DNA of 64,000 bases from Patescibacteria group bacterium (lineage in GTDB: Bacteria; Patescibacteriota; Patescibacteriia; 2-02-FULL-49-11): contig JBAZQN010000008.1 of NCBI GenBank assembly GCA_041645165.1, positions 2,374 through 66,373 of the forward strand. Direction: 5' to 3'. The notes beneath the pieces were generated by a model. It searched no databases, was not told the DNA's origin, and saw only the letters and a list, made by a program, of their open reading frames with translations. The translations under genes were made by a program, and so were the position numbers. Within the stretch, counting starts at the first letter, position 1. Every line of letters begins with the position of its first letter. Shown one piece after another: positions 12,610 to 49,200 of the stretch.

Positions 12610-12737
12610 TGTTGAAATTTTCAAATTACAATTTCTAATTTTCAAATAATTTTCAATGTCCCAATTTTCAAACATCTGCGGCTTATGAAATTGTGACATT
12701 GATTGAAAATTGAAAATTGAAAATTGATAATTTTGAT
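12610..12737. repeat. Palindromic tandem-arm element: (AATTTTCAA)x4 ... (TTGAAAATT)x3.
   Basis: The left arm is tandem copies of a 9-10-mer and the right arm is tandem copies of its reverse complement. Lies between pilC and the giant pilin gene. Confidence 0.7.
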
Positions 12738-13835
12738 TCATATCGTCTGGGTGAGTGAATACATCGGCATGATGATAGCGACAGCCATAGCACCCACACC
12801 CGCGCCAAGGATTAAAATCAGCAGCGGTTCTATGATGGAAGGGAGGTTTTTCATTATCTGATCAACTTCCTCTTCATAAAAAAGCGCAAGTTGGGAAAGG
12901 ACATTGTCAAGTGCTCCTGATTCTTCACCCACGCGCGTGAGCTGGCTGACCACCGGCGGGAAAAGGTGGGGATATGATGAAAACACCACATGTACCGGTG
13001 ATCCTTTTTTGAGGCGTTCTGCAAGATCAAGCAGTGCTTCGCGGTAATAGATATTTTTTATTGTGCGGGACGTAATTATTGACGCCTGTACGATGGGAAT
13101 GTCTGTCGTGAGGAGCGATGAAAAGGTACGGCTTATGCGAGCTAAGTTTACTTTATGGATGATAGGACCGAAAATGGGCAAACGAAGTAACAATGTATGT
13201 AGTATATGTGTACCTAAAGCAGTTTTAGCAAAAGCACGGAAGGCGACAATAAGCAACACCAATCCAATAAGTACAAAGGGACCATTTTTCGTAGTGAAGT
13301 TACTCGTGGCGATAAGAATTCTGGTAGGGAGCGGCAGCGTCGCTTTAAATTCTGCAAAAACACTTATAAGTCTCGGGATCACAAATATCATCATGGCAGT
13401 TCCAATGCCGATCATGGCAATTATGACAATAGAAGGGTAGAGCATGGCGCCGCGCACCTTGGAGATAAGTTCGTGGTCTTTTTTCATCTGTTCGGTTACG
13501 TGCTGCAGCACTTCGTCGAGTTTTCCTGAAAGTTCTCCGCTCTCAATCATGCTGACAGTAAGATCAGGAAAAACTGAAGGATGCATCGAGAGTGCCCGTG
13601 CGAATGGCGTTCCTTTCTCTACTTGTTCGTAAATGTTGTGTATTACATAATGGAATCGTTTATGCGTAGATTGATCTGCAAGGGTCCGCAATGCCATAGC
13701 AAGAGAGAGGCCTGCCTTCACCATTACCTGGAGATTTTGTATGAAAAAGATTTTTTCTGTAAGTGAAATCGGATGATGGCGGCTTATCCACGATAAAGTG
13801 TTTTGGGGAGTTTTGTTGTAATTTTGTTCTGGCAT
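12738..13835 (-). CDS. pilC: Type IV pilus inner-membrane platform protein PilC (GspF family).
   Basis: Two T2SSF-like repeats with membrane helices. Located between pilB and the pilin genes. Confidence 0.8.
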   Translation of the reverse strand: MPEQNYNKTPQNTLSWISRHHPISLTEKIFFIQNLQVMVKAGLSLAMALRTLADQSTHKRFHYVIHNIYEQVEKGTPFARALSMHPSVFPDLTVSMIESGELSGKLDEVLQHVTEQMKKDHELISKVRGAMLYPSIVIIAMIGIGTAMMIFVIPRLISVFAEFKATLPLPTRILIATSNFTTKNGPFVLIGLVLLIVAFRAFAKTALGTHILHTLLLRLPIFGPIIHKVNLARISRTFSSLLTTDIPIVQASIITSRTIKNIYYREALLDLAERLKKGSPVHVVFSSYPHLFPPVVSQLTRVGEESGALDNVLSQLALFYEEEVDQIMKNLPSIIEPLLILILGAGVGAMAVAIIMPMYSLTQTI

Positions 13836-13856
13836 GGCGCGTCAAAATTAACAATA

Positions 13857-15590
13857 TCAATCTTTGGCAACACGGAGAAGCTCCTCGATGGTAGTGATGC
13901 CTTGCTTTGCCTTAATAAACCCGTCTTGGAACATGGTGTACATGCCTTCTTTTTTTGCGCATGCGTTTATTTCTTCAGCAGATGCCCGTTTTAAAATAAG
14001 CTCAGTGATCGCAGGTGTTATGGAGAGAACCTCATAAATGCCTATACGCCCTTTATACCCTTCCTGGTTGCATTGTTTACAGCCCTTTCCTTTCCAGAAT
14101 TCCAGCGATTCGAATCGGGTTTTAGGGGAATCAACCAATTTTTCTTTTGCAAATATTTCAATTATCGCGGAAAGGTCAAATTGGTTATTTAATTCTTGCA
14201 CCGTATTGCGATCGAGTTTTATCGGTTGTTTGCAATTTTGACAAATTTTACGCGTAAGCCGCTGCGCGAGCACCAGATTAACAGTTGAGGTAATGAGGAA
14301 AGAAGCGACTTGCATATCCTGCAGTCGTGGAAACGCGGTGGCGGCGTCGTTCGTGTGGAGTGTAGAGAGCACTAAGTGTCCTGTCATAGCTGCATTTACC
14401 GCTATATCTGCAGTTTCTGAATCTCGTATTTCACCGACCATGATGACATTGGGATCTTGGCGCAAAAAAGACCTTAATCCTGCAGCGAAGGTATAGCCTA
14501 TTTTCGGGTTTACCTGGCTCTGGTTCACTCTAGGCATCCGATATTCTATGGGGTCTTCAATGGTAGTGATATTTACATTTGGCGTATTTATAATATTGAG
14601 AATGGTATAGAGTGTTGTCGTTTTTCCGGAACCGGTAGGGCCGGTTATTAATATCATCCCATGGGGTTTGGTGATGTTGAATTTGATTTTATCAAGAGAT
14701 TTTCCGTAAAACCCGAGCTGTTCGAGCGTGAGTATCTGTGCGGATTCGTTTAAGAGCCGCAATACTATTTTTTCACCGTCAAACACGGGAATGACCGAGA
14801 CACGGAATGAAATACGGTATTCATTGGTGCTTATTTTGAATCTGCCATCCTGCGGCATTCGGTGTTCGTCGAGTTTTAAATTAGCAAGAATTTTTATGCG
14901 CGCGACTATGCCTGATTGGGTTTTTTTTGGCAATGTCATGACATCGCGCAATATGCCGTCTACGCGATATCTGACTACCACTTCTTTTTCTGTGGGTTCA
15001 ATATGGATATCAGATGCGCCTTCAAAAATGGCATATTCGAGCAGGGTATCCACAATGCGAATGATGGGAAGGTCCTGCGCGAGCTCTTTTAGTTTTTCGT
15101 GATCTTCATCATTTATTACTTCAGCTTTTGTGATTTCCTCAAATTCAGCCTTTAATGATTTATGGTATTGTTTCAGTATTTCGTGTATGTCGGTAGGCGT
15201 GGTGATGTATATTTCAATATCCAGCCCTGTGCGTTTTTTTATAAATTCAAAAGTTTGAAGATCGTCGGGGTCAAGGGTCGCCACTTTCAATGCGGTATCC
15301 GTGCGGTTGAACGCGACAATGAGATGGGAAGAAGCAATCGGTTCAGGAATGAGATTAAGAATATCTTTTCGGATATTGAGCGCGTTGAGCTTCACATAAG
15401 GATATCCTAAAAGTTCTGCCTGAATTTCAGCCAGCTGATCCTCGGTGATCAATTTTTTTTCAAGCAAAACCTGCTCTAACTGCTTATGGGATGATTCTGC
15501 CTCCTTTAATGCCGCATCCAGTTCTTTTTTTGAAGCAATTTTTCCCTTTATTATCGCTTCAAAGAGATTTTTAGATTGAGAGAGGGGCAT
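13857..15590 (-). CDS. pilB: Type IV pilus assembly ATPase PilB (GspE family).
   Basis: Walker A GPTGSGKTTTLY, Asp/His boxes, a tetracysteine motif (CKQCNQEGYKGRIGIYEV) and an N-terminal GspII_E domain. Confidence 0.9.
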   Translation of the reverse strand: MPLSQSKNLFEAIIKGKIASKKELDAALKEAESSHKQLEQVLLEKKLITEDQLAEIQAELLGYPYVKLNALNIRKDILNLIPEPIASSHLIVAFNRTDTALKVATLDPDDLQTFEFIKKRTGLDIEIYITTPTDIHEILKQYHKSLKAEFEEITKAEVINDEDHEKLKELAQDLPIIRIVDTLLEYAIFEGASDIHIEPTEKEVVVRYRVDGILRDVMTLPKKTQSGIVARIKILANLKLDEHRMPQDGRFKISTNEYRISFRVSVIPVFDGEKIVLRLLNESAQILTLEQLGFYGKSLDKIKFNITKPHGMILITGPTGSGKTTTLYTILNIINTPNVNITTIEDPIEYRMPRVNQSQVNPKIGYTFAAGLRSFLRQDPNVIMVGEIRDSETADIAVNAAMTGHLVLSTLHTNDAATAFPRLQDMQVASFLITSTVNLVLAQRLTRKICQNCKQPIKLDRNTVQELNNQFDLSAIIEIFAKEKLVDSPKTRFESLEFWKGKGCKQCNQEGYKGRIGIYEVLSITPAITELILKRASAEEINACAKKEGMYTMFQDGFIKAKQGITTIEELLRVAKD

Positions 15591-15651
15591 GGGTTTGGTA
15601 TAGACGTTATGTTGTATATATTATACCATAGAATATGACGTTGCGCATGAG

Positions 15652-16038
15652 ATGCTAGTAAAACTCCCATTTATGCCACTTTTCCCCTCATTACGAAAGG
15701 ATTTATACCACCGGCTTCCATGGGTTATATGGAATGTGGCGATTTCGTTTGTTTTAAATGCGGCAACCTGGGTCTATGTGTATTTTACCATTGAGCCATC
15801 GGTAGATCCGATCCCGCTGCATATCACCGTGTATTTCGGAATAGATTTTATAGGCCCTTTTTGGTATTTTTACCTGCTTGCGGCATCAGGCACCCTCATG
15901 ACCATATTCAATGGCGGTGTGGGAAGGATGCTTTATCGCGATGAGCCAAGGCTTGCTGCGGCATTACTTACGTTCACAACGGTAATGAATGCGTTTTTGT
16001 GCGCCATCACGGTTTACCTTTCAACATTTGTGTTATGA
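15652..16038 (+). CDS. Hypothetical integral membrane protein (4 predicted TM).
   Basis: Hydrophobic profile only. Confidence 0.3.
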   Translation: MLVKLPFMPLFPSLRKDLYHRLPWVIWNVAISFVLNAATWVYVYFTIEPSVDPIPLHITVYFGIDFIGPFWYFYLLAASGTLMTIFNGGVGRMLYRDEPRLAAALLTFTTVMNAFLCAITVYLSTFVL

Positions 16039-16724
16039 GCGATCATGAGCCGTATCATTATTTTAATGAAATTTCGATTGGCCACGACTCAAGCGTTATG
16101 ATAGGGCGCAAATATGAGGAAGGTTATGTTTTTACGAGACGGGGGCCGCACATTATGCGACAGGTGCGCTCGGTAAGAGTTTCCATAGGCTCCTTTCAAT
16201 TATCAAGCGAGAATCGTCGGATCTTGAAAAACTATGCTTTCCTTAATCTCCATTATGAAGCACTGCCTTATCCAGGCTATCATTGGACAATTGGAAAAAT
16301 TGCAGTTGATTTTTATAAAAAGAAAACGGGCTCACGCGCCATGAGCGCCCAGAAAATAAAGACCCTATTCACCTCGCCTCATGAAAGCATGAATGGCGTT
16401 TTTATATATCAATGGAAACAAGTAGAACGCCCTCTCGGCTACAGCCTTCTTTTTTCATCTGCGCGTATGCTTCATTATGCGTATCCTTTTTACGACGTGG
16501 CACATGCACGCGCATTAACGCTTCCTTCCTTGGGAATGGCAATGATGCTCAAGGCGATCCTTTGGGCGCAAGAAAAAAATATGGACTATGTATATCTGGG
16601 AAGTATCCACAATGAACGCTCACTCTATAAATTTCAGTTTAAAGGAGTGGAGTGGTTTAATGGTAAAAAATGGCAGCAGGGGAAACCTGAAAAATCCCAA
16701 ATCCAAATTTCAAAGTTCAAATAA
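16035..16724 (+). CDS. Arginyl/leucyl-tRNA--protein transferase-like protein (ATE1/Bpt family, ATE_C-like).
   Basis: C-terminal DYVYLGSIHNERSLYKFQFKGVEWF resembles the ATE_C motif (YLGYYI...YK..F.P.E.L). The start is probably the internal Met at 16035. The last ~11 codons are read from a repeat element. Confidence 0.4.
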   Translation: MSDHEPYHYFNEISIGHDSSVMIGRKYEEGYVFTRRGPHIMRQVRSVRVSIGSFQLSSENRRILKNYAFLNLHYEALPYPGYHWTIGKIAVDFYKKKTGSRAMSAQKIKTLFTSPHESMNGVFIYQWKQVERPLGYSLLFSSARMLHYAYPFYDVAHARALTLPSLGMAMMLKAILWAQEKNMDYVYLGSIHNERSLYKFQFKGVEWFNGKKWQQGKPEKSQIQISKFK

Positions 16725-16810
16725 AATCCAAAATCCCAATGTCAAATTTGATATTGGACATTTGAACTTGAGATTTTATTTGATATTTGGATTTTGACAT
16801 TGGGATTTAA
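16691..16810. repeat. Palindromic tandem-arm element (AAATCCCAAT / ATTGGGATTT type).
   Basis: aaatcccaaatccaaa...atccaaaatcccaatgtcaaatttgatat | atatttggattttgacattgggattt. Long imperfect palindrome. Confidence 0.7.
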
Positions 16811-16847
16811 GCAAATAATGTAGAGAATTTTCGAGAGGATAGTTTTC

Positions 16848-18257
16848 ATGCTTATGATCGCAAAAAGACACATTCATTTTATAGGAATATGCGGCACTGC
16901 CATGGCGCCAGTCGCTAAAATGTTTTGGGATTTGGGATGGCGCGTAACTGGTTCTGACAAAGGCATTTATCCCCCTATATCGGATTATTTAAAACAGAAT
17001 AAGATTGCATATTATGTTGGATTTCATCCTGAGCGGATAGGGAATCCTGATAAGGTAGTGGTGGGGAATTATATCAGCCTTGTAAATCCTGAATTTTCTG
17101 CGATAAGGGAGCGCGGTATTCCTTATCAGTCCTACCCTGAGGCATTACGGGAATACGTAATAAAATCAAACTCAATCGTGGTTGCGGGAAGTTTTGGAAA
17201 AACCACCACGACCGCACTTCTTGCGTGGATTTGGGAATGCGCGGGGAGACGCCCTTCATTCATGGCAGGCGGAATGATGCGCAATTTTCCTAATAGCGTG
17301 CGATCAAATGATTCGTTATGGAGCATTGTAGAAGGTGACGAGTATCCGGCATGCCGATGGAATCCTGTCCCAAAATTTTCATTTTATGACCCGCATTTTT
17401 TAGTGTTAACCGGCGTGCAGTGGGATCACGCAGATATCTATACGACAGAAGAATCCTACATTGAAATGTTTAAAAAGTTGGTTGCATCGATGCCTCCCAA
17501 TGGACTCATCTGCGCGGCTTTGGACCGACCACATATGCGCGATGTTCTCAACAAGGCATCTGCACCGGTGGTATGGTACGGAAGGACTGGGAGCGGTGCA
17601 GATTGGAGCACAGAGGTGTTATATCAAAAAAAAGCAACCAAAATGACATTTTACGGACCTTCAAATGAAACAATAGGCCCGGTGAGTGTGCCTCTTTTGG
17701 GCAGTATTGCATTCGATCACTTTACCGGTGCAGTAGCGCTTGCGCGTGCTTCCGGCATTGATCAAACTGCCATCATGCAAGCGCTCACCTCGTTCCAGGG
17801 AGTATGCAGGCGGCTTGAAGTAAGGGGTGTGGTGAACAAGGTGAGCATAATAGACGACTTCGCCCATTCACCGAGCAAGGCAAAATCTGCTATTGATGCG
17901 GTGAAGCAAACATTTAATCGCGGACGCGTCATAGTCGTTTTTGAACCGAACGTAGGGAATCGGCTTCGTTCGTTAGCGCCCTCATATAGAGATGCGTTTA
18001 ATTCCGCGAATACCGTTATTGTGCCGCGTTTATCAGCAACGAAACACAATGAAAATACAGAGGCAAGGTTGGATGGCGCACAACTTGCGCAAATTATCAG
18101 TTCATCGAATACTCATATAGAGGAAGTCGTTTATATCGATGATGATATTCAGGTTGTCCAAAAGCTGCAAAAAATCGCCCAACCGGGCGACTGCATACTT
18201 TTTCTCGGCTCGCATGGATTCAGAGGGATGATCGAACAGACACTAGAGTGTCTGTAA
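16848..18257 (+). CDS. Mur ligase family protein (Mpl/MurC-like; UDP-N-acetylmuramate-peptide or L-Ala ligase).
   Basis: N-terminal HIHFIGICGTAMAPVA...VTGSD, P-loop VVAGSFGKTTTTAL and a Mur ligase middle/C-terminal domain. The ICGT motif favours Mpl. Confidence 0.7.
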   Translation: MLMIAKRHIHFIGICGTAMAPVAKMFWDLGWRVTGSDKGIYPPISDYLKQNKIAYYVGFHPERIGNPDKVVVGNYISLVNPEFSAIRERGIPYQSYPEALREYVIKSNSIVVAGSFGKTTTTALLAWIWECAGRRPSFMAGGMMRNFPNSVRSNDSLWSIVEGDEYPACRWNPVPKFSFYDPHFLVLTGVQWDHADIYTTEESYIEMFKKLVASMPPNGLICAALDRPHMRDVLNKASAPVVWYGRTGSGADWSTEVLYQKKATKMTFYGPSNETIGPVSVPLLGSIAFDHFTGAVALARASGIDQTAIMQALTSFQGVCRRLEVRGVVNKVSIIDDFAHSPSKAKSAIDAVKQTFNRGRVIVVFEPNVGNRLRSLAPSYRDAFNSANTVIVPRLSATKHNENTEARLDGAQLAQIISSSNTHIEEVVYIDDDIQVVQKLQKIAQPGDCILFLGSHGFRGMIEQTLECL

Positions 18258-18367
18258 TGCCAAAGTTCAAATTTCCAATTTCAAATTGACATGTGACATT
18301 TGTCCCGCTCCTTGAATTTGGTTATCTAAAGTATGCGGGATCCCGCTGAAGCGGGAAATTTTGAGCT
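18258..18367 (-). repeat. Same repeat family, copy B (reverse orientation).
   Basis: Reverse complement reads TCAAAATTTCCCGCTTCAGCGGGATCCCGCATACTTTAGATAACCAAATTCAAGGAGCGGGACAAATGTCAC..., collinear with copy A. Confidence 0.75.
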
Positions 18368-18386
18368 TTGTCATTCCCCGTAGGGG

Positions 18387-18557
18387 CTATTTCTCCTCTT
18401 CCACGATGACCGTAGTAAAATTTCCTTGCGCGTCAATTCCAGTCACTTCTAGTGTCATGCCGCACTGTTCGCATTCAACAACTTCGCCTTTGCTTAAAGC
18501 GCCACGCTCATAATCAAGCTCATTTTTGCATTCAGGGCATGTGGTATGGTAATCCAT
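18387..18557 (-). CDS. LysW-like small zinc-ribbon protein (56 aa; absent from the ORF track because it is under 60 aa).
   Basis: MDYHTTCPECKNELDYERGALSKGEVVECEQCGMTLEVTGIDAQGNFTTVIVEEEK. The CPEC...CEQC spacing and the ...LEV.G.D... pattern resemble the alpha-aminoadipate carrier protein LysW. Acidic C-terminal tail ending in EEEK (LysW ends in Glu). Confidence 0.5.
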   Translation of the reverse strand: MDYHTTCPECKNELDYERGALSKGEVVECEQCGMTLEVTGIDAQGNFTTVIVEEEK

Positions 18558-18638
18558 ATGAAATATTGTTAAATTGTTACATTGCTGTACTGTTAAGCAA
18601 TAACAGTGTAGCCATATTACAGTGTATCAATCAATCCA

Positions 18639-19586
18639 ATGAAATTGCAACCCACCCCCCTTCAGAAATGCATTTTTCCTCTCCTCCCGGAAAACTGTAT
18701 GGGTAGAATAATATATATCAAGCGAGAGGACTTGAATCCTTCCGGTTCCCATAAAGATAGGGCGCTTTTTCCCTATGTCGATAAATTAGTGAAGAAGGGG
18801 GAGGAGGCATTTTGCCTAAGCTCTTCGGGCAACTTTGCCGTTTCTGCCGCGTATTATGCGCACCATCATACACAGGTTCAATTCCATCTTTTTCTTCCTC
18901 CAACGATTTCCCAAGAAAAAAAAGACAGATTAAACGAATACAAGACTGACAACGTAATTATTCACTGGTCAAAATTGGCAAAAAGCGAAGCAGGTCAATT
19001 TAGCCGTAAAACACATATACGTCTATTACGAGGGTCGAAGGACGATTGCTTACTTGAAGGGTACTATGAGTTAGTAAGAGAATTAGTAGAACAGACTAAA
19101 GGTAAAGGAGGGAGTGTTTTTATGGCTGTATCTTCAGGAACAATGTTGGTAGGGTTATGGGAGGGATTTCAAAATAATCCAAAATCCAAAATCTCCCGCC
19201 ATAGCGGGATCTCGCATATCTTAGAGAATCAGATTCAAGGTGCGGGACAAATACCCAATTTTTATATTGTGCAATCGACGAGGGTGCATCCTATCGCGAG
19301 TGAGTTTGATAGCGATTTTACGCCAACAAAATCTTCCATAGCATCAGCCATTGTGGATCGCGTCGCAAATCGTAAAGATCAGGTGGTCAACGCGGTTAAA
19401 GAAAGCCACGGATCGGGATGGATCGTATCTGATGAAGAAATTACAATTGCGATGAAAAAGTTAGCCGGAGTTCTGCATGAAAACGTGAGTCCGGAAAGCG
19501 CCATGTCGCTCGCGGGTTTACAAAAGGCTTGTTCAAAAGGTTTTCATGTAAAGAAACCGATTGTATTAATTTTTACTGGGAAATAG
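18639..19586 (+). CDS. Fold-type II PLP-dependent enzyme (Trp-synthase-beta / Cys-synthase / Thr-synthase superfamily).
   Basis: TPL...IYIKREDLNPSGSHKDRA (PLP-Lys motif) and the glycine loop AVSSGTMLVGL. Contains an in-frame ~69-nt repeat-element insertion after the NNPKSKI segment. Confidence 0.7.
   Translation: MKLQPTPLQKCIFPLLPENCMGRIIYIKREDLNPSGSHKDRALFPYVDKLVKKGEEAFCLSSSGNFAVSAAYYAHHHTQVQFHLFLPPTISQEKKDRLNEYKTDNVIIHWSKLAKSEAGQFSRKTHIRLLRGSKDDCLLEGYYELVRELVEQTKGKGGSVFMAVSSGTMLVGLWEGFQNNPKSKISRHSGISHILENQIQGAGQIPNFYIVQSTRVHPIASEFDSDFTPTKSSIASAIVDRVANRKDQVVNAVKESHGSGWIVSDEEITIAMKKLAGVLHENVSPESAMSLAGLQKACSKGFHVKKPIVLIFTGK
19182..19262 (+). repeat. Same repeat family, copy C, located inside the PLP-enzyme CDS and read in-frame.
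   Basis: TCCAAAATCTCCCGCCATAGCGGGATCTCGCATATCTTAGAGAATCAGATTCAAGGTGCGGGACAAATACCCAAT is collinear with copies A and B. Encodes ...SKISRHSGISHILENQIQGAGQIPN. Confidence 0.7.
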
Positions 19587-23029: not shown

Positions 23030-23133
23030 AATTCCAAATCCCAATATCCAATTCCCAATAAAGCTCCAAGCCCCAATTTCCAAAATTGATTATTTGACAT
23101 TTGGATTTTGAAATTGGGATTTATTCACGAAAT
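23030..23133. repeat. Palindromic tandem-arm element (AAATCCCAAT / ATTGGGATTT type) between mraY and ftsW.
   Basis: ccaaatcccaatatccaattcccaat...ccaaaattgattatttgacatttggattttgaaattgggattt. The 3' end is nearly identical to the 16691-16810 element. Confidence 0.7.
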
Positions 23134-40968: not shown

Positions 40969-41024
40969 TAAATTGAGGTGCCGTAACTATTCAATGTTCC
41001 AAAATAAACGAATTATGGACACCA

Positions 41025-41139: not shown

Positions 41140-42858
41140 ATGACTAATAAACAAAGGCTTTGGATGTATGTAGGGCTCATCATAGCGCTCTTTTTAATTG
41201 CACTTATTTTTGCCGCGCCTAAACTCCCCACTGCGGTTCCCGCGGCTTCTTTTTTTGCTAAATTTCCTTATAAATTAGGCTTGGATCTCAAGGGAGGCGC
41301 CCACCTTATTTACCAAGCAGACACCTCGCAAGTGCCCTTTGCAGACAAACAATCCGCAATCAACGGCGTCCGCGATGTAATCGAACGGCGGGTCAATGCG
41401 TTCGGCATTTCAGAACCTCTGGTGCAAACTAACCAATCAGGCGATGAATACCGCGTCATTGTGGAGCTTGCAGGCGTATTTAATGTTGATGAGGCGATAA
41501 AACTTATCGGAGAAACTCCGTTGCTTGAATTTAAAACGCAAAACCCCGTAGCGGATGCACCGCTTACTGAAGAACAAAAGCAACAGCTTATAAAAGATAA
41601 TGAAACAGTCCTGAAGAGCGCTCAAGAAGTACTCGTGCAATCACATGCACCCAATGCTGATTTTAGCGCATTGGCAAAACAATATTCAGAAGACCCTGGA
41701 TCCAAAGAGCAGGGAGGGGATTTAGGATGGGCAAAAAAGGGAGTATTTGTGCCTGAATTCGATAAGGCGATTTTTGAAACCCTTAAAGCAGGGGAAACCA
41801 CCAAAGAATTAGTGCAAACCCAATTCGGCTACCATATTATCAAAAAGATTGAAGAGCGCGAGGTGGAAGGCGCGGCGAAAGGTGAACCGGAAAAGGAAGT
41901 CCATGCCGCGCATATACTCCTCCGCACCATCGCTGAACAAGATATCTCATCTCAAGTTGACCCGTGGGTTAATACCGCGCTCTCGGGAAAACAACTTAAG
42001 CGCGCCAGTGTTCAATTCAACTCACAAACAGGGGAACCGAATGTCAATCTGGAATTCAATGATGAGGGATCGAAACTTTTTGCGGAGCTCACCGGCGCCA
42101 ACATCGGCAAACCTATTGCTATATTTCTTGACGGGCAGGCAATTTCAGTGCCTACGGTTCAGGAAAAAATTGAAGGCGGCAGCGCAGTCATCACCGGGAG
42201 GTTTAATATAAAAGAAGCCCGCACGCTCGCAGAACGCCTCAATGCGGGCGCGCTGCCCGTCCCCATTCATTTGATTGCGCAAACCACCGTAGGCCCCACC
42301 CTCGGTTCTTTGTCTTTAAACCAGAGCCTGCGCGCAGGTATGATAGGAATACTTATCGTAATGTTATTCATGATATTGTACTATCGTTTACCCGGCATCA
42401 TCGCTTCGTTCGCGTTATTGCTCTATGCGAGCATCGTACTTGTTCTTTTTAAACTCATACCCGTGACACTCACGCTCGCAGGCATAGCCGGCTTTATCCT
42501 TTCAGTGGGCATGGCAGTTGACGCGAATATCCTTATTTTTGAGCGTCTCAAAGAAGAGCTAAAAGCGGGAAGGGACCTGCCCACGGCCGTTGAAGAAGGC
42601 TTTAAACGCGCGTGGACCTCCATCCGAGATTCGAATTTTTCGTCTCTCATCACCTGTGCGGTCCTTATGTGGTTTGGCAGCTCTGTCATCAAAGGTTTTG
42701 CAGTTACCCTGATCATCGGTATTCTTTCATCCATGTTTACCGCCATTACCGTAAGCAGAACCATTTTAAAGGCAATCGCCTTAACCGGAGCGAAGAGGCA
42801 TTTATGGATGTTTGGTTACCACCGCATTGAGACTAAGAGTGGCGATATGAAAATGTAA
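41140..42858 (+). CDS. secD: Protein-export membrane protein SecD with an embedded PpiC/parvulin-type PPIase domain.
   Basis: SecD blocks (LGLDLKGGAHLIYQAD; ...GKPIAIFLDGQAISVPTVQEKIEGGSAVITG; 6 C-terminal TM). The inserted ~90 aa carry ...FSALAKQYSEDPGSKEQGGDLGWAKKGVFVPEFDKAIFETLKAGE...FGYHIIKKIE, the parvulin signature. Confidence 0.75.
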   Translation: MTNKQRLWMYVGLIIALFLIALIFAAPKLPTAVPAASFFAKFPYKLGLDLKGGAHLIYQADTSQVPFADKQSAINGVRDVIERRVNAFGISEPLVQTNQSGDEYRVIVELAGVFNVDEAIKLIGETPLLEFKTQNPVADAPLTEEQKQQLIKDNETVLKSAQEVLVQSHAPNADFSALAKQYSEDPGSKEQGGDLGWAKKGVFVPEFDKAIFETLKAGETTKELVQTQFGYHIIKKIEEREVEGAAKGEPEKEVHAAHILLRTIAEQDISSQVDPWVNTALSGKQLKRASVQFNSQTGEPNVNLEFNDEGSKLFAELTGANIGKPIAIFLDGQAISVPTVQEKIEGGSAVITGRFNIKEARTLAERLNAGALPVPIHLIAQTTVGPTLGSLSLNQSLRAGMIGILIVMLFMILYYRLPGIIASFALLLYASIVLVLFKLIPVTLTLAGIAGFILSVGMAVDANILIFERLKEELKAGRDLPTAVEEGFKRAWTSIRDSNFSSLITCAVLMWFGSSVIKGFAVTLIIGILSSMFTAITVSRTILKAIALTGAKRHLWMFGYHRIETKSGDMKM

Positions 42859-42981
42859 AGATATGATTTTTCTGAGTCGTTTCAGTGTATATTTCAGTGT
42901 ACTTCCAGTGTGAAAAGGCTCACTCACAGAAAAATCTGAATCCTAAACGGAAAACACTGAAGTCGCAAATTTCTTAAATAA

Positions 42982-43920
42982 ATGACTATGCTTGCTATAA
43001 TCCCTAATAGAAAATACAATCTTGGATTCTCAGCGCTGCTCATAGTGCTGTCCGCTACGGCATTATTTGTGTGGGGATTAAAATTTGGCATTGATTTTAC
43101 CGGCGGTGCCATGGTAGAGCTTGAGTCTACATTAATAAATCCGCCTGCATCGTATGAAATTCAACAGAAGCTCATAAGTGATGGATTTGATGTTGCTTCA
43201 ATCCAAATGAGCAATCAAAATACGTATCTCATACGGTTAGGCATCATGGATGAAGGCGAACACCAGCGATTTACAAAGAGCATGGAGGAGAATTTTAATT
43301 CGCTGCAAAAAAGCGAGGGAGCTGACAAGGCCTATATTGAAAAGCGTTTTGAATCAATCGGTCCGACCATCAGTAATGAATTCCGACAAAAATCATATTT
43401 GGCAATCATTATTGCGCTTCTCGCAATCATCGCGTATATCGGATACTCCTTCAGGAAGGTTTCAAAGCCCGTGGCGAGCTGGAAATACGGGGTATGCGCG
43501 GTGATCGCGCTCATGCACGATGTTGCCATCCCCACAGGCATTTTTGCAGTGCTTGGACATTATGCGGGCTGGGAAGTGGATCTGCTATTCATCACGGCGC
43601 TGCTTACCGTCTTAGGGTTCTCTGTACACGATACTATCGTCGTATATGACAGGATCAGGGAAAATTTGCTAAAGATCGGAGGTCGAAATTTCGCGGAAAT
43701 AGCGAACATAAGCGTCAATCAAACCCTCGCCCGATCCATCAATACTTCCTTGGTGACTATTATCGTGCTTGCGGCTCTTTTTGTGCTTGGCGGCGAGACC
43801 ACAAGGCATTTCGTGCTTGTGCTTATCACCGGCATCGTATTCGGCACCTATTCTTCCATATTTATCGCTTCGCCTCTTTTGGTTATCTGGAACAATATAA
43901 GTCAAAAAAATAAAAAATAG
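42982..43920 (+). CDS. secF: Protein-export membrane protein SecF.
   Basis: LKFGIDFTGGAMVEL start and 6 TM helices of the SecDF family. Position after secD. Confidence 0.85.
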   Translation: MTMLAIIPNRKYNLGFSALLIVLSATALFVWGLKFGIDFTGGAMVELESTLINPPASYEIQQKLISDGFDVASIQMSNQNTYLIRLGIMDEGEHQRFTKSMEENFNSLQKSEGADKAYIEKRFESIGPTISNEFRQKSYLAIIIALLAIIAYIGYSFRKVSKPVASWKYGVCAVIALMHDVAIPTGIFAVLGHYAGWEVDLLFITALLTVLGFSVHDTIVVYDRIRENLLKIGGRNFAEIANISVNQTLARSINTSLVTIIVLAALFVLGGETTRHFVLVLITGIVFGTYSSIFIASPLLVIWNNISQKNKK

Positions 43921-43962
43921 TGCGATTGAGCACTACAACATACCAAGAAGATGCGTTGATTT

Positions 43963-44880
43963 TTATTCTGCGATTCCTCTCCATGCAATGCGTTGCGCAT
44001 TGCCGCCGACAGGATAGCAGGTGACCAGAGTAAGGGTAGGCGTATCACTAATGGCAAATAATCTTTTATCATCAGGATACACAACCATGGATTCAGTGAG
44101 AATATAGCGGACGAACCGCTTTTTTTTATTCTGGTAGGTATACGTAAATTCCACCGCATCTCCTTTTTTAAGATCAGGAAGATCCTTGAAGATATCAGTA
44201 TACGGGCCTTGCTGCCATACATAGTCTGAAGAATGCCCTGTGATAAAGCTGTTTCCGCGCTCACCCGGGCTGGCAGTCCCGGGATAATGGATAGCACCTC
44301 TTTTGAGATCTTGCTCTATGCGTTTAACATCATCAGATTCAGACCAAACCACAGGAGCGAGTACCCTAAGCGAGGGGATGGATATCGTAAGCGCGGGCCT
44401 CCCTTTCCCCGTGGGATCAAATCCATTTTCCACCTCAAGCCCGTCAGGAAATGTGTCTCCATCGCTGTCGGCAATGTCACTCCCTGTGCCTATAATTTGT
44501 TCTAATGCGTCACTCAAGCCGTCACTATCCTTGTCAGAGACCTTTGTGTTTTTCACTGCAAATTCAGCAGGAAGAGAACCAGCGCCCAATGGATTTTGAT
44601 TGCGTAAAATCTCATCGCCGTCATGCGTCCCATCAGCGTCAGAGTCGGGCAAATAAGTATTAGTGCCATAAAGTCGCTCTTCAGGATCCGATAAGCCGTC
44701 ATGATCACTGTCGCTCATGAATGATTCCACCCTTTCAAATGATCCTACATACGCGCGCACCGTTGACCAATTCATGATGAAAGTGGCGATGAGTCCGGTA
44801 AAGAGGGAACAGAAGATCGCAAATGTCGTTCGCGACATTTGCGGAAGTGGCAATGATGGCGTCTGTTTTAACGTTAACAT
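43963..44880 (-). CDS. Sortase-family transpeptidase with N-terminal TM and Asp-rich calcium-binding-like repeats.
   Basis: C-terminal catalytic TLTLVTCYP (TLxTC) preceded by His and Arg contexts. Four DxDxDG-type repeats (SDSDHDGLSD, DSDADGTHDGDE, DKDSDGLSD, DSDGDTFPDG). Confidence 0.65.
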   Translation of the reverse strand: MLTLKQTPSLPLPQMSRTTFAIFCSLFTGLIATFIMNWSTVRAYVGSFERVESFMSDSDHDGLSDPEERLYGTNTYLPDSDADGTHDGDEILRNQNPLGAGSLPAEFAVKNTKVSDKDSDGLSDALEQIIGTGSDIADSDGDTFPDGLEVENGFDPTGKGRPALTISIPSLRVLAPVVWSESDDVKRIEQDLKRGAIHYPGTASPGERGNSFITGHSSDYVWQQGPYTDIFKDLPDLKKGDAVEFTYTYQNKKKRFVRYILTESMVVYPDDKRLFAISDTPTLTLVTCYPVGGNAQRIAWRGIAE

Positions 44881-44890
44881 GCCTGTATAT

Positions 44891-46243
44891 TTAGACTAAC
44901 GAATTATTTTTAGTCTTGTAGAGGAAACCCAGCACACCGGCGAATATGCTGAATACCAGGATAGAGAGAAGCGCTGAAGGGCCTGTCCTTGGCGATTCTT
45001 GAATAGCTGCTCTGACACGGGGCGTACCGGAAAGGATAGTAGTAATAATCTCCGTGCTATCGATTTGATAATTCTTAGCGCTTGCACTCACGGTAAGCGC
45101 GACAGGCGTTTGATAGGGAGCATTTGAGGTCACTTGAAATACTGGATTCCATGTCCTCACTTCCCCATTATCGAGCTGATCGATTTCCCAATAAAGCGTA
45201 TTTTTTTCTTTAATCCCGCCTTGAGAATCAAGAATGTCAAAATATAAAGGGTCAAAATGAAGTGACACTAAAATACCTTCTGCGCGCGACCCTGAATAAT
45301 TAGTTACTATGATCTCGCTATTGACCCTTTCGCCACGATAAGCAGTATGCGAAGTTACTCGATATTCATTTTCGTCACTCACGAGCATGCGAACTGACAA
45401 TGAGTCATTCCCCTCAATGGCATCAAGCAGTGTTGTGCTGGTAAGGTAATCAAACCTCGTGGCATTATCCGCAGTAATAGTGACCATATTCGTCAGCTTG
45501 TCCAGTGTGGATGATCCGCGCACCCTCACCGTAACCGTCTGAATGGCTTTTTGTCCCGGATAAAAATTTCCCACACTCCAGCGCACTTCACCGGCCTGCA
45601 CCGAACCGCCTGTGCTTGTCTGAATAATATCAGCATTTTGTTCGTCAAAATCGTCTGTAAGGATCGTATTGCGTGCTATGGTATTTCCATCATTCCGGTA
45701 GGAGATGGTATAGGCAATTAAATCACCCTGCCTTACTGTATCCTTGTCTGCGCTTACGGTGGCAACCAGCACCGGCTTAGCCTGCGCAGATATATTAACA
45801 GTAGGTGTGGTAAGTGATGACACATTATCCGCGCTTAATCGCGCGAAGGCTGAAATAGTCGTAGTGCCGCTGGGCAACTGCTCTTTTATGGTGAACCAAA
45901 ACACTCTCACTTCTGTGGTTTTTTGCGTTAAACGCTCCTGAGTATATATAACCGTTCCCAAACTTTGCACCGCACTGCCAATATCATGGGGAGTAAGCAG
46001 GTGCTCGTCATAGTCCAAAATAATGCGTATGTTGTCAGCGTTTTCAAACGCGGTATTTGCATAGGTAACAGTATAACCAATTATATCACCCGGCGATGCT
46101 TCATTTTTTGTCACTGAGAGCCCCAGAGAAAGAATCGCATTCGCTGATGCGTTCGATACGAATAAAGTACTAGTGAATGCGGTTGAAATTACGGCAAACA
46201 TAGCTGCGTAAGAGAATGCCTTGTGAATAGGTATTAATTTCAT
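44891..46243 (-). CDS. Cell-surface protein with signal peptide and C-terminal sorting signal (likely substrate of the adjacent sortase).
   Basis: N-terminal signal peptide (...FVSNASA). C-terminal ...QESPRTGPSALLSILVFSIFAGVLGFLYKTKNN: xPxTG-like motif, then a hydrophobic helix and a basic tail. Repetitive beta-rich body. Confidence 0.6.
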   Translation of the reverse strand: MKLIPIHKAFSYAAMFAVISTAFTSTLFVSNASANAILSLGLSVTKNEASPGDIIGYTVTYANTAFENADNIRIILDYDEHLLTPHDIGSAVQSLGTVIYTQERLTQKTTEVRVFWFTIKEQLPSGTTTISAFARLSADNVSSLTTPTVNISAQAKPVLVATVSADKDTVRQGDLIAYTISYRNDGNTIARNTILTDDFDEQNADIIQTSTGGSVQAGEVRWSVGNFYPGQKAIQTVTVRVRGSSTLDKLTNMVTITADNATRFDYLTSTTLLDAIEGNDSLSVRMLVSDENEYRVTSHTAYRGERVNSEIIVTNYSGSRAEGILVSLHFDPLYFDILDSQGGIKEKNTLYWEIDQLDNGEVRTWNPVFQVTSNAPYQTPVALTVSASAKNYQIDSTEIITTILSGTPRVRAAIQESPRTGPSALLSILVFSIFAGVLGFLYKTKNNSLV

Positions 46244-47698: not shown

Positions 47699-47707
47699 AC
47701 ATTCGTT

Positions 47708-49096
47708 GTGGATATCACTATCAATCTCGCGCCTTTTTTCGATGCGGCCGCAAATAACCCACTCACGGTAGGGTGGTTTCTTCTTATCCACGGGGGATGG
47801 ATGCCTGTTCTTGTGGTAATATTGAGCACATTTTGGCATGTACGATTGCGTAATATCAGAGCAGCATACCTCCATCATCTTAACTATACAATTTTTGCAA
47901 TCGATGTTCCGAAGTTAAACGAACAATCTACCAGAGCAGTAGAGCAAATATTCGCGCAATTAGCAGGAGCGTTCTCCGGCGTTAACCTGATTGAGAAATA
48001 TATCCAGGGCAAAAATCAGGAAAGTTTCTCATTTGAAATAGTTTCTCTCGGAGGCTATATCCAATTTTTAGTGCGTACCCCAACCCATTTTCGCGATCTC
48101 ATTGAGGCGGCAATTTATGCACAATATCCTGATGCAGAAATTACCGAGGTGGAAGACTACACAGGCATGATTCCCCGGCAATACCCCTCTGATGAATTTA
48201 ATTTATGGGGCACTGAGCTCAAGCTTAACCGTAAAAGCGTGTATCCCATTCGAACCTATCCGCTCTTCGAGCACACCCTTACACAAAAATTTGCCGACCC
48301 AATGGCTGCGCTCCTGGAAATTATGAGCCATATGCACCCAGGTGAAAATATTTGGATCCAATGGGTAATTACGCCCATTGGAGACGGGTGGAAAGAAAAA
48401 GGCATCAATGAAGCGAAAAAATTGATTGGCGCACATGTAAAACAGGCGCCCACGCTTACTGCACGGGCGCTGCAACCGGTTCGCATAGTAACTGGAGGGG
48501 CAAGCGAAGTGCTCCTCCATGGATTGGGTATTTCTCCATATCATGTTGAAGGTGCGGCAGCGAAAGACATGCCAAGTCACATACAATATCTGTCTCCTGG
48601 AGAACGCGCGATCGTTGAGGCCATTGAAGCAAAAATTTCTAAAGTCGGTTTCCACGCTAAATGCCGCATTATTTATGTCGCGAAAAAAGAAATATTCGAT
48701 AAAGCGCGCGGTGTTGCGGGTATTTTGGGCGCCTTTAGCCAATTTAGCGCATTGAATCTCAACAGTTTTGAACCCGCAGGCAAGGTGACCACAAAAGCAA
48801 ATTATTTCTTCACTAAACGCAGAATCGCCAAACGCCAAAAAAAAATAGCGCGCGCATTCCGCCAACGAAGCAAAGAATTAGGATGGGGTCATGGCATGAT
48901 ATTGAATACCGAGGAATTGGCAACGGTGTGGCATTTCCCCGTTGCAGAGGTGAAAGCCCCGTTAGTGAAGATGACTGAAGCGAAAAAAGGAGAGCCCCCG
49001 GCTGAGTTGCCGATAGAAATTATGGAGCCTGCCGCAAGTGATGCACAGACATCCAAAATACAAGAAGCGGAAACGCCGGAAAATTTACCCGTATAA
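47708..49096 (+). CDS. Hypothetical membrane-anchored protein (possible partner or N-terminal module of the downstream coupling-protein-like ATPase).
   Basis: N-terminal TM (VGWFLLIHGGWMPVLVVILSTFW). Otherwise unassigned. Confidence 0.3.
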   Translation: MDITINLAPFFDAAANNPLTVGWFLLIHGGWMPVLVVILSTFWHVRLRNIRAAYLHHLNYTIFAIDVPKLNEQSTRAVEQIFAQLAGAFSGVNLIEKYIQGKNQESFSFEIVSLGGYIQFLVRTPTHFRDLIEAAIYAQYPDAEITEVEDYTGMIPRQYPSDEFNLWGTELKLNRKSVYPIRTYPLFEHTLTQKFADPMAALLEIMSHMHPGENIWIQWVITPIGDGWKEKGINEAKKLIGAHVKQAPTLTARALQPVRIVTGGASEVLLHGLGISPYHVEGAAAKDMPSHIQYLSPGERAIVEAIEAKISKVGFHAKCRIIYVAKKEIFDKARGVAGILGAFSQFSALNLNSFEPAGKVTTKANYFFTKRRIAKRQKKIARAFRQRSKELGWGHGMILNTEELATVWHFPVAEVKAPLVKMTEAKKGEPPAELPIEIMEPAASDAQTSKIQEAETPENLPV

Positions 49097-49200
49097 TCCA
49101 AAATTTAAAGTCCAAAAATCAAAATGCGAGATCAAAATGCAAAAATTTTTGATTATTAATTTTCATTTTTAGATTTTAGGTTTTACATTTTGCATTTTTA
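49085..49200. repeat. Palindromic A-rich / T-rich arm element (CAAAATGCAAAAA / TTTTTGCATTTTG type).
   Basis: tccaaaatttaaagtccaaaaatcaaaatgcgagatcaaaatgcaaaaattttt...ttttacattttgcatttttac. Confidence 0.55.

What the first reader, a model, noticed from the sequence alone, without database searches (positions are those of the whole stretch)
12610..49200. Family of intergenic 'tandem-arm palindromes': the left arm is a tandem oligomer and the right arm is the tandem reverse complement
At least five intergenic loci share an unusual architecture:
- 8604-8720
- 12610-12737
- 16691-16810
- 23030-23133
- 49085-49200

In each, one half is A/C-rich tandem 8-10-mers (AAATCCCAAT, AATTTTCAA, CAAAATGCA) and the other half is the G/T-rich tandem reverse complement. 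Each therefore predicts a long imperfect hairpin with strong strand asymmetry.

Two of the loci end with almost the same 30-mer (TTTGGATTTTGA(A/C)ATTGGGATTTA). They sit at operon boundaries (pilM/pilX-like, pilC/pilin, Bpt/mur ligase, mraY/ftsW, membrane protein/VirD4-like gene), and several run into annotated start or stop codons.

They are not CRISPR arrays, since there are no unique spacers. Possible roles are terminators or attenuators, replication-related cruciforms, or MITE-like elements.
Basis: seen in the sequence. Interest (0 to 1): 0.65.

Follow-up and report, generated by a model that had tools for sequence, protein, structure and literature searches.

The report
Heptamer-built hairpin repeats between operon genes
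In this uncultivated Patescibacteria (Uhrbacteria-like) genome, the gaps between co-transcribed genes are filled by a family of 90-130-base palindromes built from 7-base units. The family is dispersed and its copies get swapped for other palindromes, much like REP, MITE or cyanobacterial STRR repeats, and it has not been described for this group of bacteria.

Summary
**Observation: real.** All five loci are long imperfect palindromes with a G-poor 5' half and a C-poor 3' half. Nothing comparable appears in composition-preserving shuffles. I found a sixth at 18256-18375. The repeat unit is 7 nt, not 8-10.

**Family.** Thirteen copies from five genomes align on a phased skeleton, (NNNNCAA)n on the left and (TTGNNNN)n on the right.

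**Host and setting.** The host is a CPR bacterium (Candidatus Uhrbacteria-like). The elements sit inside operons, and their hairpin base abuts the upstream stop codon and the downstream start codon.

**Comparison with four relatives:**
- Junctions keep a heptamer repeat, usually palindromic, but its sequence is often replaced outright.
- Near-identical copies occur at non-orthologous junctions that are gene overlaps in this window.
- Small GC-rich palindromes nest inside the elements, and one lies in frame within a gene.
- The 16691 copy is 94% identical to a genome whose flanking genes are 64-77% identical. An equally close relative as L001 (L151) carries a different palindrome at that site.

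**What they are not.** They lack the features of canonical terminators, and no sense-strand folding preference was found.

**Best reading.** A lineage-specific, REPIN/MITE/STRR-like palindromic repeat family, tolerated because the hairpin loops the insert out of coupled gene junctions. This is a new variant of a known kind, of moderate interest.

The parts
8586..8701 (.). Heptamer palindrome. Left arm has AAATCCC/CCAATGA units; right arm is ATTGGTC x4.4. It lies between a 487-aa hypothetical gene (8708-10171, minus strand) and PilM (7370-8536, minus strand).
   Evidence: (I9). Folding is weak (z = -1.6).
8533..8587 (+). Copy 1 of a roughly 54-nt GC-rich palindromic element (TCACCGC...GCGGGATCCCGC...GAGCGGGA), directly abutting the 8604 palindrome.
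   Evidence: alignment A5. The core GCGGGATCCCGC is absent from all 149 loci fetched up to that call.
12612..12738 (.). Heptamer palindrome of the AATTTTC / ATTGAAA type. It fills the spacer from the PilC stop codon (12738-12740, minus strand) to the GTG start of the pilin-like gene (12609).
   Evidence: I3, I4; z = -4.3 and -4.1. A related copy with 86-88% identity lies at L002 8919-9040, at a different junction.
16692..16808 (.). The best-formed copy: 45 predicted pairs, dG -43.7 kcal/mol. The stop codon of the Bpt-like gene (16722-16724) lies inside the left arm. The Mur ligase gene starts 40 nt after the right arm.
   Evidence: I1; z = -7.0; 94% identical to L002 against 64-77% for the flanks.
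18258..18375 (.). Left arm 18258-18300, right arm 18357-18375, split by a nested GC-rich element. It lies between the Mur ligase stop and the stop of a LysW-like gene on the minus strand (18387-18557), so these two genes converge.
   Evidence: (z = -4.0). L001 has the uninterrupted short form. L152 keeps the left-arm vocabulary immediately after its Mur ligase stop.
18303..18356 (-). Copy 2 of the GC-rich palindromic element, nested in the loop of the 18256 palindrome. It is absent from L001.
23031..23122 (.). Heptamer palindrome between the MraY stop (23025-23027) and the FtsW start (23134). This copy is degenerate; its right arm is shortened.
   Evidence: I6; z = -2.0. The orthologues in L002 and L071 fold well (z = -4.3 and -4.6) using different units.
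49085..49200 (.). Heptamer palindrome of the CAAAATG / TTTTACA type. The stop of the upstream 462-aa gene (49094-49096) lies in the left arm. The VirD4/TrwB-like gene starts at 49222 and has its own Shine-Dalgarno sequence.
   Evidence: (z = -3.4). The same unit type occupies the 16691 site in L151.
19165..19247 (+). Heptamer units (AATCCAA x2.6) followed by copy 3 of the GC-rich element (19194-19247). The whole block is inserted in frame inside the PALP-enzyme gene (18639-19586).
   Evidence: L001 lacks the block. L002 has a different heptamer-flanked insert at the same place.

Best explanation
These are copies of a lineage-specific family of small, non-coding palindromic repeat elements. Each is made of phased heptamers, (NNNNCAA)n followed by the complementary (TTGNNNN)n. 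In behaviour they resemble REP/REPIN elements, MITEs and cyanobacterial STRR hairpins.

**Shown:**
- They occupy the stop-to-start junctions of co-directional genes.
- They share a 7-nt skeleton across genomes.
- Whole elements recur nearly unchanged at non-orthologous junctions.
- At a given junction an element is either kept almost unchanged or replaced outright by another heptamer repeat, usually a palindrome.
- They serve as landing pads for a second, GC-rich mini-palindrome, which can also sit in frame inside a gene.

**Inferred:**
- The elements spread by copying or recombination among heptamer-bearing spacers, not by a cut-and-paste transposase. No target-site duplication and no transposase were seen.
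- They persist at junctions whose empty state, in both junctions where it could be seen, is a gene overlap because a palindrome folds out of the mRNA as one 40-55-bp hairpin. The hairpin base brings the upstream stop codon and the downstream start codon back within about 10 nt of each other. Operon expression, including translational coupling, would therefore survive the insertion.
- Arm decay would destroy that tolerance. This would explain why old junction elements still pair even though their sequences have changed.
- Such long duplexes would also be natural RNase III substrates, so they probably affect the relative stability of the flanking cistrons.
- A few copies, notably the 16691 type, are conserved far beyond neutral expectation and may have acquired a sequence-specific role.
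For: **Family and period**
- Thirteen copies from the window, L001, L002, L071 and L004 align with invariant AA columns every 7 nt in the left arm and TT columns every 7 nt in the right arm.
- Tandem Repeats Finder gives period 7 in the arms.
- Among non-genic palindromes with repetitive arms in 2.2 Mb of CPR loci, period 7 is the best period in 21 of 41, against 9 of 50 control segments (p = 0.0015).

**Dispersal**
- L001 9749-9968 is a second copy of the 16691 type (92-97% identical). In the window that junction is a 16-nt gene overlap.
- L002 8919-9040 is a 12610-type copy (86-88% identical). In the window and in L001 that junction is an ATGA overlap.
- The 23-mer TTTGGATTTTGAMATTGGGATTT occurs at three different junctions in L001.

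**Turnover at fixed junctions**
- The 12610 site carries four different states in four genomes.
- The junction after MraY carries an element in the window, L001, L002, L071, L151 and L004, with differing units.
- L002 and L071 fold well at that junction (z = -4.3 and -4.6) even though their arm sequences differ.

**Filling the junction**
- Median distance from stop codon to stem is -1 nt; from stem to start codon, 8 nt.
- 16 of 24 heptamer palindromes have both distances at or below 15 nt, against 12 of 48 other palindromes (p = 9e-4).

**Nesting**
-.

**DNA-level symmetry**
- No sense-strand folding preference: 13 against 16, Wilcoxon p = 0.30.

**No known RNA family**
- Rfam gives nothing at gathering threshold. 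At relaxed threshold the only matches are generic microRNA-precursor hairpin models scoring far below their gathering scores.
Against: - **No mobilising enzyme.** None was found among the 50 larger window ORFs scanned against Pfam.
- **No clean insertion boundaries.** No target-site duplication and no clean empty-versus-filled boundary could be defined.
- **The 16691 copy looks selected, not selfish.**
  - It is 94% identical between the window and L002. Flanking third codon positions are about 50% identical, and the spacer down to the start codon is 38% identical.
  - The adjacent Mur ligase proteins are only 57% identical.
  - Five of its eight substitutions fall at unpaired positions (p = 0.02), and two more preserve pairing only on the sense strand.
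  - Together these points favour host-level selection on an RNA.
- **Exceptions to junction filling.** Some copies (16691, 49085) sit 28-40 nt from a start codon that has its own Shine-Dalgarno sequence, so the stop/start juxtaposition idea does not apply to them.
- **No direct evidence.** There are no transcript data. Every functional step is inference.
Confidence: 0.5

Rival explanations
1. The hairpins are host-selected RNA elements between cistrons. Transcribed within pil and cell-wall operons, they would act as RNase III processing sites, 3'-end stabilisers or translational-coupling devices that set the relative expression of neighbouring genes. Under this reading the repeat-family appearance is secondary.
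For: - The 16691 element is far more conserved than its flanks and its substitutions spare paired positions.
- The vocabulary of the 18256 element is kept immediately after the Mur ligase stop in L152, where the Mur ligase protein is only 57% identical.
- The hairpin is maintained, with arms changing together, at the junction after MraY in L002 and L071.
- Stop and start codons sit at the base of the helix.
- MraY 3' ends carry a palindrome in 21 of 112 cases, against 159 of 1882 for all gene 3' ends.
Against: - No sense-strand folding advantage across 29 elements.
- L151, an equally close relative as L001 (MraY 94.6% identical), has replaced the 16691, 18256 and 23030 elements with unrelated heptamer palindromes and has almost no spacer at the 12610 site.
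- The window itself lacks elements at two junctions where relatives have them.
- The window's 23030 copy is half decayed.
Confidence: 0.25
2. The palindromes arise in place as a mutational by-product. Replication slippage expands heptamers in AT-rich spacers, and intrastrand template switching copies one arm onto the other. There would be no mobility and no function.
For: - Direct-only heptamer arrays exist at the same junctions: ATTCTGC x4.5 in L002 and TCCATGT x3 in L151.
- Unit numbers differ between orthologues.
- Period-7 palindromes with unrelated units occur in many CPR genomes.
Against: - Whole 80-117-nt elements recur at 86-97% identity at non-orthologous junctions.
- The same unit vocabulary is shared with a Magasanikbacteria genome whose MraY is only 58% identical.
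- Conservation of 94% against a saturated background is not expected for slippage products.
Confidence: 0.1
3. They are unusual, AT-rich, bidirectional transcription terminators or attenuators.
For: - They lie directly 3' of genes.
- One copy (18256) lies between converging genes.
- The 5' arm is C-rich and G-poor, like a Rho loading site.
Against: - The consensus scan (8000-24000) listed no terminator-like site, meaning a G+C-rich stem followed by a T run, at any of the four element loci it covered; 49085 was outside the scanned range.
- Several copies end 0-11 nt before the next start codon, which leaves no room for a promoter.
- The empty state of these junctions is a gene overlap.
- The genome uses canonical terminators elsewhere (5670-5695; about 54060-54095).
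Confidence: 0.07
4. The phased heptads are an array of binding sites for a protein that reads 7-nt units on DNA or RNA, for example a nucleoid protein, a cold-shock or S1-type RNA binder, or the -35-like TTGACA repeats recruiting RNA polymerase. Alternatively they function as DNA cruciforms.
For: - AA/TT phasing is invariant at 7 nt.
- The vocabulary is lineage-specific but conserved.
- The right arms are rich in TTGACA- and TTGAAA-like hexamers.
Against: - No properly spaced -10 element is conserved between orthologues (reading).
- The unit sequences differ completely between sub-families within one genome (AAATCCC, AATTTTC, CAAAATG).
- No candidate protein has been identified.
- Polarity is reversed in other CPR genomes.
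Confidence: 0.08

Closest known systems
REP / REPIN elements (E. coli, Pseudomonas; REPIN paper PMC3116915; REP super-families PMC3733652)
   Same: - Short extragenic palindromes, present in many copies.
- About 100 nt long when paired as a hairpin.
- Located between co-transcribed genes.
- No target-site duplication.
- Long persistence at fixed positions.
- Proposed roles in mRNA stabilisation.
   Different: - No GTAG or CGTC head tetranucleotide.
- Arms are tandem heptamers rather than a single conserved 20-40-mer.
- AT-rich.
- No RAYT gene seen in the 64-kb window.
Cyanobacterial STRR heptamer repeats and the small dispersed repeats nested in them (Mazel 1990; Elhai 2008, cited in PMC3116915). 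The papers themselves could not be read here; details are from my own knowledge.
   Same: - 7-nt tandem units in spacers between genes of one operon.
- Arrays often paired with their complement to give variable but structured spacers.
- Small GC-richer mobile mini-elements nested inside them.
- One window arm (ATTGGTC x4.4) is a rotation of the STRR unit TTGGTCA.
   Different: - A different phylum (Patescibacteria, with genomes around 1 Mb).
- A different vocabulary (CAA-anchored units).
- Here the palindromic form dominates, and it exactly fills stop-to-start junctions.
MITEs such as Correia/NEMIS elements of Neisseria
   Same: - Size of 100-150 nt.
- Terminal inverted repeats.
- Presence/absence differences between relatives.
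- Co-transcribed with neighbouring genes. RNase III processing is known for Correia elements (own knowledge).
   Different: - No target-site duplication and no clean insertion boundaries.
- The whole element is one palindrome.
- A genuine MITE in the same window (2442-2664 and 19591-19815) does show terminal inverted repeats plus a TATG duplication.
TAACTGA heptamer direct repeats of Beggiatoaceae, Cyanobacteria and Bacteroidetes (PMC4679880)
   Same: - Heptamer period.
- Intergenic location.
- Placed within a few nucleotides of start codons.
- Patchy phylogenetic distribution.
- A post-transcriptional role has been suspected.
   Different: - Those are almost always direct repeats of one fixed heptamer (169 direct sets against one indirect set).
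- They are not palindromes.
Rickettsia palindromic elements (own knowledge)
   Same: The nested 54-nt GC-rich palindrome occurs once in frame inside a protein-coding gene (19194-19247).
   Different: - This applies only to the nested element, not to the heptamer palindromes.
- Only three copies were seen.

Membership tests
REP/REPIN | Imperfect palindrome, present in many copies, extragenic, forming a hairpin of about 100 nt | tested here: met
   Six copies in 64 kb. Four to five copies per 13-21 kb in relatives.
REP/REPIN | Conserved GTAG or CGTC tetranucleotide at one end of the REP unit | tested here: not met
   The ends read AAATCCC...GGGATTT or AAATTTTC...GAAAATT.
REP/REPIN | A cognate RAYT (Y1 transposase) gene flanked by the repeats | tested here: inconclusive
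   No transposase domain was found in the 50 larger window ORFs scanned. The rest of the genome is not available.
MITE | Terminal inverted repeats | tested here: met
   Trivially met, because the whole element is a palindrome.
MITE | Target-site duplication flanking the element | tested here: not met
   No direct repeat is visible at the filled-versus-empty junctions. The 226-nt MITE in the same window has a TATG duplication.
MITE | Presence/absence at orthologous sites, and near-identical copies elsewhere | tested here: met
   L001 9749-9968 and L002 8919-9040 compared with the gene overlaps in the window.
Cyanobacterial STRR | Tandem heptanucleotide units in intergenic DNA | tested here: met
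   Tandem Repeats Finder gives period 7, and the alignment shows phased AA/TT columns.
Cyanobacterial STRR | The defined STRR unit sequences, in heterocystous cyanobacteria | tested here: not met
   The host is Patescibacteria. The units are CAA-anchored. Only the ATTGGTC arm coincides with an STRR unit.
Intrinsic terminator | G+C-rich stem followed by a U tract | tested here: not met
   The consensus scan of 8000-24000 listed no terminator-like site at any of the four element loci in that range; 49085 was outside the scanned range. Arm G+C content is 18-33%.
Integron attC site | RYYYAAC ... GTTRRRY core sites, cassette genes, and an integrase | tested here: not met
   The ends do not match. 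The flanking genes are syntenic housekeeping genes.
CRISPR array | Direct repeats separated by unique spacers | tested here: not met
   The units are contiguous and are mirrored as a palindrome.
Any Rfam RNA family | A match at the family's gathering score | tested here: not met
   No hits at gathering threshold. At the relaxed threshold only microRNA-precursor models matched, at 24-30 bits against gathering scores of 70-102 bits.

The most novel reading that the evidence does not exclude
Heptamer-phased palindromes may be a Patescibacteria-wide 'operon punctuation' system.

- It would be a class of cis elements with lineage-specific 7-nt vocabularies.
- A dedicated trans-acting factor (an enzyme or an RNA/DNA-binding protein with a 7-nt footprint) would read and propagate them.
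- Through the hairpin, the elements would keep stop and start codons juxtaposed and control processing between cistrons.

The extreme conservation of the 16691 and 18256 types around the Mur ligase gene would then mark copies that have been recruited as regulators of cell-wall genes.
Probability: 0.18. Interest if true: 0.7.

Novelty: new variant of a known kind. Interest (0 to 1): 0.5.

Why it matters
Patescibacteria have tiny, gene-dense genomes and are usually treated as nearly free of repeats and poor in regulators. A dispersed repeat family that fills roughly a quarter of the longer co-directional spacers in this window is therefore notable.

- **Repeat dynamics.** Elements turn over by whole-element replacement while the hairpin is kept. 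This shows active repeat dynamics in streamlined genomes.
- **A testable rule.** The data suggest why only palindromes survive inside tightly coupled operons: the hairpin restores the proximity of stop and start codons.
- **The heptamer question.** The recurrence of a 7-nt period links these elements to the unexplained heptamer repeats of cyanobacteria and giant sulfur bacteria. CPR metagenomes offer many independent lineages in which to ask what sets that period.
- **Annotation artefacts.** The elements extend ORF calls. Examples are the 636-aa ORF that reads through the 12610 element and the TTG 'start' of FtsW inside the 23030 element. They also add tails to proteins, such as ...KSQIQISKFK* on the Bpt-like protein.

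Tried and rejected
**Detectors that did not work**
- A C-G skew-switch score did not separate the elements from background.
- Pairing G-depleted with C-depleted runs was swamped by AT-rich genomes.
- Local MFE folding (Lfold) returned 229 'hairpins' and was useless as a detector.
- Whole-sequence self-BLAST either missed centre-crossing matches or timed out.

**Hypotheses rejected**
- DNA-uptake-sequence idea: no over-represented 8-mer outside the elements.
- Promoter idea: TTGACA-like hexamers are abundant in right arms, but no conserved, correctly spaced -10 element exists across orthologues.
- A functional meaning for the 'C-rich arm first' polarity: other CPR genomes have heptamer palindromes of the opposite polarity, such as AAGTATT in L017 and L087. 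Polarity is therefore inherited within a family.
- Sense-strand RNA selection across the whole class: not detected.

**Uninformative or negative results**
- RNAalifold on the four orthologues after MraY was uninformative, because whole units shift register.
- A viral-contig scan for the shared 23-mer found nothing. A search for relatives of the VirD4-like gene in viral contigs also found nothing.
- Literature searches found no description of such repeats in CPR.
- The Elhai 2008 paper could not be retrieved.


Full report

Yes. The five stretches read as described: a G-poor left half made of short A/C/T units and a C-poor right half that is its approximate reverse complement.

- The inverted-repeat finder ranks them at the top of the window. 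The best are 56-nt arms at 16692-16808 and 39-nt arms at 12629-12726. The 23036/23099 and 8593/8652 pairs rank lower.
- As single strands, three fold far better than dinucleotide shuffles: z = -7.0, -4.3 and -3.4. The 23030 and 8604 copies are weak: z = -2.0 and -1.6.
- Window-wide, only three centres reach 20 of 24 gapless pairs. None did in 20 shuffles that preserve local composition.
- A gapped detector scores six places at 15 or more; the maximum in shuffles was 14. The remaining place (1628-1764) is an unrelated inverted repeat.

- The tandem period in the arms is 7 or a multiple of 7, not 8-10.
- The elements lie between co-directional genes, that is, inside operons.

**2. Host and neighbours**

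A scan with the MraY protein places the window in Patescibacteria. The closest relatives are:

| Locus | Record | MraY identity to window |
|---|---|---|
| L001 / L070 | Candidatus Uhrbacteria RIFCSPLOWO2_02_FULL_49_11 | 94% |
| L151 | GCA_040960315.1 | 94.6% |
| L002 | Patescibacteria MAG | 82% |
| L071 | metagenome contig | 76% |

The window is part of a 73-kb ENA contig.

The flanking genes are:
- a 487-aa hypothetical gene and PilM;
- PilC and a pilin-like protein;
- a Bpt-like ATE_C protein and a Mur ligase;
- the Mur ligase and a LysW-like zinc ribbon protein;
- MraY and FtsW;
- a 462-aa hypothetical gene and a TrwB/VirD4-like ATPase.

**3. Is it one family?**

Sequence similarity alone links only some copies.
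- The 16691 and 23030 elements share a 33-nt end at 94% identity.
- The 12610 and 49085 elements use other units.

A joint alignment tells a different story. Thirteen elements from five genomes share a skeleton, with invariant AA columns every 7 nt on the left and invariant TT columns every 7 nt on the right. The family is therefore defined by phased heptads, (NNNNCAA)n / (TTGNNNN)n, with sub-families that differ in the variable positions.

The same vocabulary (AATGTCA, AATTTCC, AAATCCA) occurs in a Magasanikbacteria genome, L004, whose MraY is only 58% identical.

More broadly, in 2.2 Mb of CPR loci:
- Period 7 dominates palindromes with repetitive arms: 21 of 41, against 9 of 50 controls.
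- The units are unrelated from genome to genome, and some families have the opposite polarity.
- The 'C-rich arm first' polarity is therefore a family trait, not a functional rule.

**4. Comparative behaviour**

*(a) Junctions keep some element while its sequence turns over.*
- The junction after MraY carries a heptamer palindrome in the window, L001, L002, L071, L151 and L004. The units differ between genomes.
- The L002 and L071 versions fold strongly (z = -4.3 and -4.6), while the window's copy has lost part of its right arm.
- The 12610 junction has four different states in four genomes:
  - window: AATTTTC-type palindrome;
  - L001: AAATCCC/AATGTCC palindrome with a nested GC hairpin;
  - L002: ATTCTGC x4.5, direct repeats only;
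  - L151: an 11-nt spacer next to TCCATGT x3.

*(b) Whole elements recur at other junctions.*
- L001 has a second 16691-type copy (92-97% identical) upstream of MraY. In the window those two genes overlap by 16 nt.
- L002 has a 12610-type copy (86-88% identical) at a junction that is an ATGA overlap in the window and in L001.

*(c) Extreme conservation of some copies.*
- The 16691 element is 94% identical between the window and L002.
- By comparison, the flanking coding sequence is 64-77% identical, third codon positions about 50%, and the spacer down to the ATG 38%.
- The adjacent Mur ligase proteins are 57% identical.
- Of eight substitutions among the orthologues, five fall at unpaired positions (p = 0.02), two are wobble changes that keep pairing on the sense strand, and one breaks a terminal pair.
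- The 18256-type left arm is likewise retained directly after the Mur ligase stop in L152.
- Against this, L151 is an equally close relative as L001 and has a different, CAAAATG-type palindrome at the 16691 site, and other types at the 18256 and 23030 sites.
- The pattern is 'nearly unchanged or wholly replaced'.

*(d) Nesting.*
- A 54-nt GC-rich palindrome occurs three times in the window: beside the 8604 element, inside the loop of the 18256 element (absent in L001), and in frame inside the PALP gene (absent in L001).
- L001 and L002 carry other GC-rich inserts inside their own heptamer elements.

**5. Position relative to translation signals**

Across the CPR loci, heptamer palindromes between co-directional genes begin a median of -1 nt from the upstream stop codon and end a median of 8 nt before the next start codon.
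- 16 of 24 have both distances at or below 15 nt.
- Only 12 of 48 other palindromes do (p = 9e-4).

In the two cases where the empty state can be seen, it is a gene overlap. In the folded RNA, the stop and start codons therefore sit at the base of one helix.

**6. What it is not**

- *Canonical terminators.* The consensus scan of 8000-24000 listed no terminator-like site (G+C-rich stem followed by a T run) at any of the four element loci in that range; 49085 was not scanned. The genome has classical terminators elsewhere, for example AAAACCCCCTCACGGGGGTTTTT at 5670-5695.
- *A known RNA family*.
- *Uptake sequences*.
- *CRISPR or attC.*
- *Classical MITEs.* No target-site duplication is visible. 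A genuine 226-nt MITE in the same window has terminal inverted repeats and a TATG duplication, and its orthologous site is empty.
- *Strand-specific RNA structures, as a class.* Across 29 elements the sense strand does not fold better than the antisense strand (13 against 16, p = 0.30).

**7. Best explanation**

A dispersed, replaceable family of heptamer-built palindromic repeats, analogous to REPINs, MITEs and cyanobacterial STRR hairpins with their nested mini-elements.

- *Shown:* the architecture, the phased skeleton, dispersal to non-orthologous junctions, turnover by replacement, nesting, and exact filling of stop-to-start junctions.
- *Inferred:* spread by copying or recombination among heptamer-bearing spacers.
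- *Inferred:* tolerance at these junctions (gene overlaps in the two cases where the empty state could be seen) because the hairpin loops the insert out and restores the proximity of stop and start. This would select for continued arm complementarity.
- *Inferred from general knowledge of RNase III:* duplexes of 40-55 bp are likely substrates for that enzyme.

The strong conservation of the 16691 and 18256 types is not explained by selfish spread alone. It keeps a host-function reading alive; I rate that rival at 0.25.

**8. Novelty**

Literature searches found heptamer repeats described for cyanobacteria and Beggiatoaceae (PMC4679880) and REP/REPIN systems (PMC3116915, PMC3733652). They found nothing for CPR.

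I classify this as a new variant of a known kind, of moderate interest. What lifts it above routine:
- the cross-lineage 7-nt phasing;
- the 'hairpin kept, sequence replaced' behaviour;
- the stop/start juxtaposition;
- one copy that is conserved more strongly than the second codon positions of its neighbouring genes.

Noticed in passing
window 2442-2664 and 19591-19815: A bona fide MITE of about 226 nt, present in two copies.
- Terminal inverted repeats of about 20 nt: CCC(C/A)GT(A/T)ATACAA(C/T)ATCCAA ... TTGGAT(G/A)TTGATAT(A/T)C(G/T)GGG.
- A 4-nt TATG duplication. Its right-hand copy supplies the ATG of the downstream gene (a SufS-like aminotransferase in one case, an ATP-grasp protein in the other).
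- The orthologous site is empty in L001 and L002.
- An internal stem shows a compensatory change between the two copies: GAGGGAAGC/GCTTCCCT versus GAGGGAGGC/GCCTCCCT.
- No Rfam match.
   Followed up: partly
window 33-1604: The SufB-like ORF carries a LAGLIDADG homing-endonuclease domain between its SufBD core segments, so it probably contains an intein.
   Followed up: no
window 6202-6296: A perfect tandem duplication of 48 nt (2.0 copies, 100% match) inside the unannotated ORF 6002-6676 on the minus strand, next to the PilN-like gene.
   Followed up: no
window 42883-42960 and 25340-25430: Other junction hairpins with tandem units of a different kind.
- TTTCAGTGTA x2.5 followed by ACACTGAA, between SecD and SecF.
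- TTCTGCGT...ACGCAGAA, between MurG and a Mur ligase.

They may be more distant relatives of the same phenomenon.
   Followed up: no
L152 2059-2309: In a relative whose Mur ligase is 57% identical, the spacer upstream of that gene is a 250-nt GC-rich region with very stable predicted structure (dG -82 kcal/mol) in place of a heptamer palindrome. Its identity is unknown.
   Followed up: no
MraY 3' ends in L003-L149: The 3' end of mraY is a modest hotspot for palindromic spacers across CPR genomes: 21 of 112, against 159 of 1882 for all gene 3' ends (p = 9e-4). This holds even though the downstream gene differs between genomes, FtsW in some and a Bpt/FemAB-like gene in others.
   Followed up: partly
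window 16689-16724; L001 9740-9782: Two different upstream genes read into the left arm of the 16691-type element in the same frame. Both acquire the same C-terminal tail...(E/K)KSQIQ(I/S)SKFK*, and both stop at the TAA within CAAATAAAATCC.
   Followed up: partly
window 40000-46000: Cumulative GC skew peaks near 42-44 kb and then declines. This coincides with the end of a long run of plus-strand genes. It could be a replication landmark, or it could simply reflect gene orientation.
   Followed up: no
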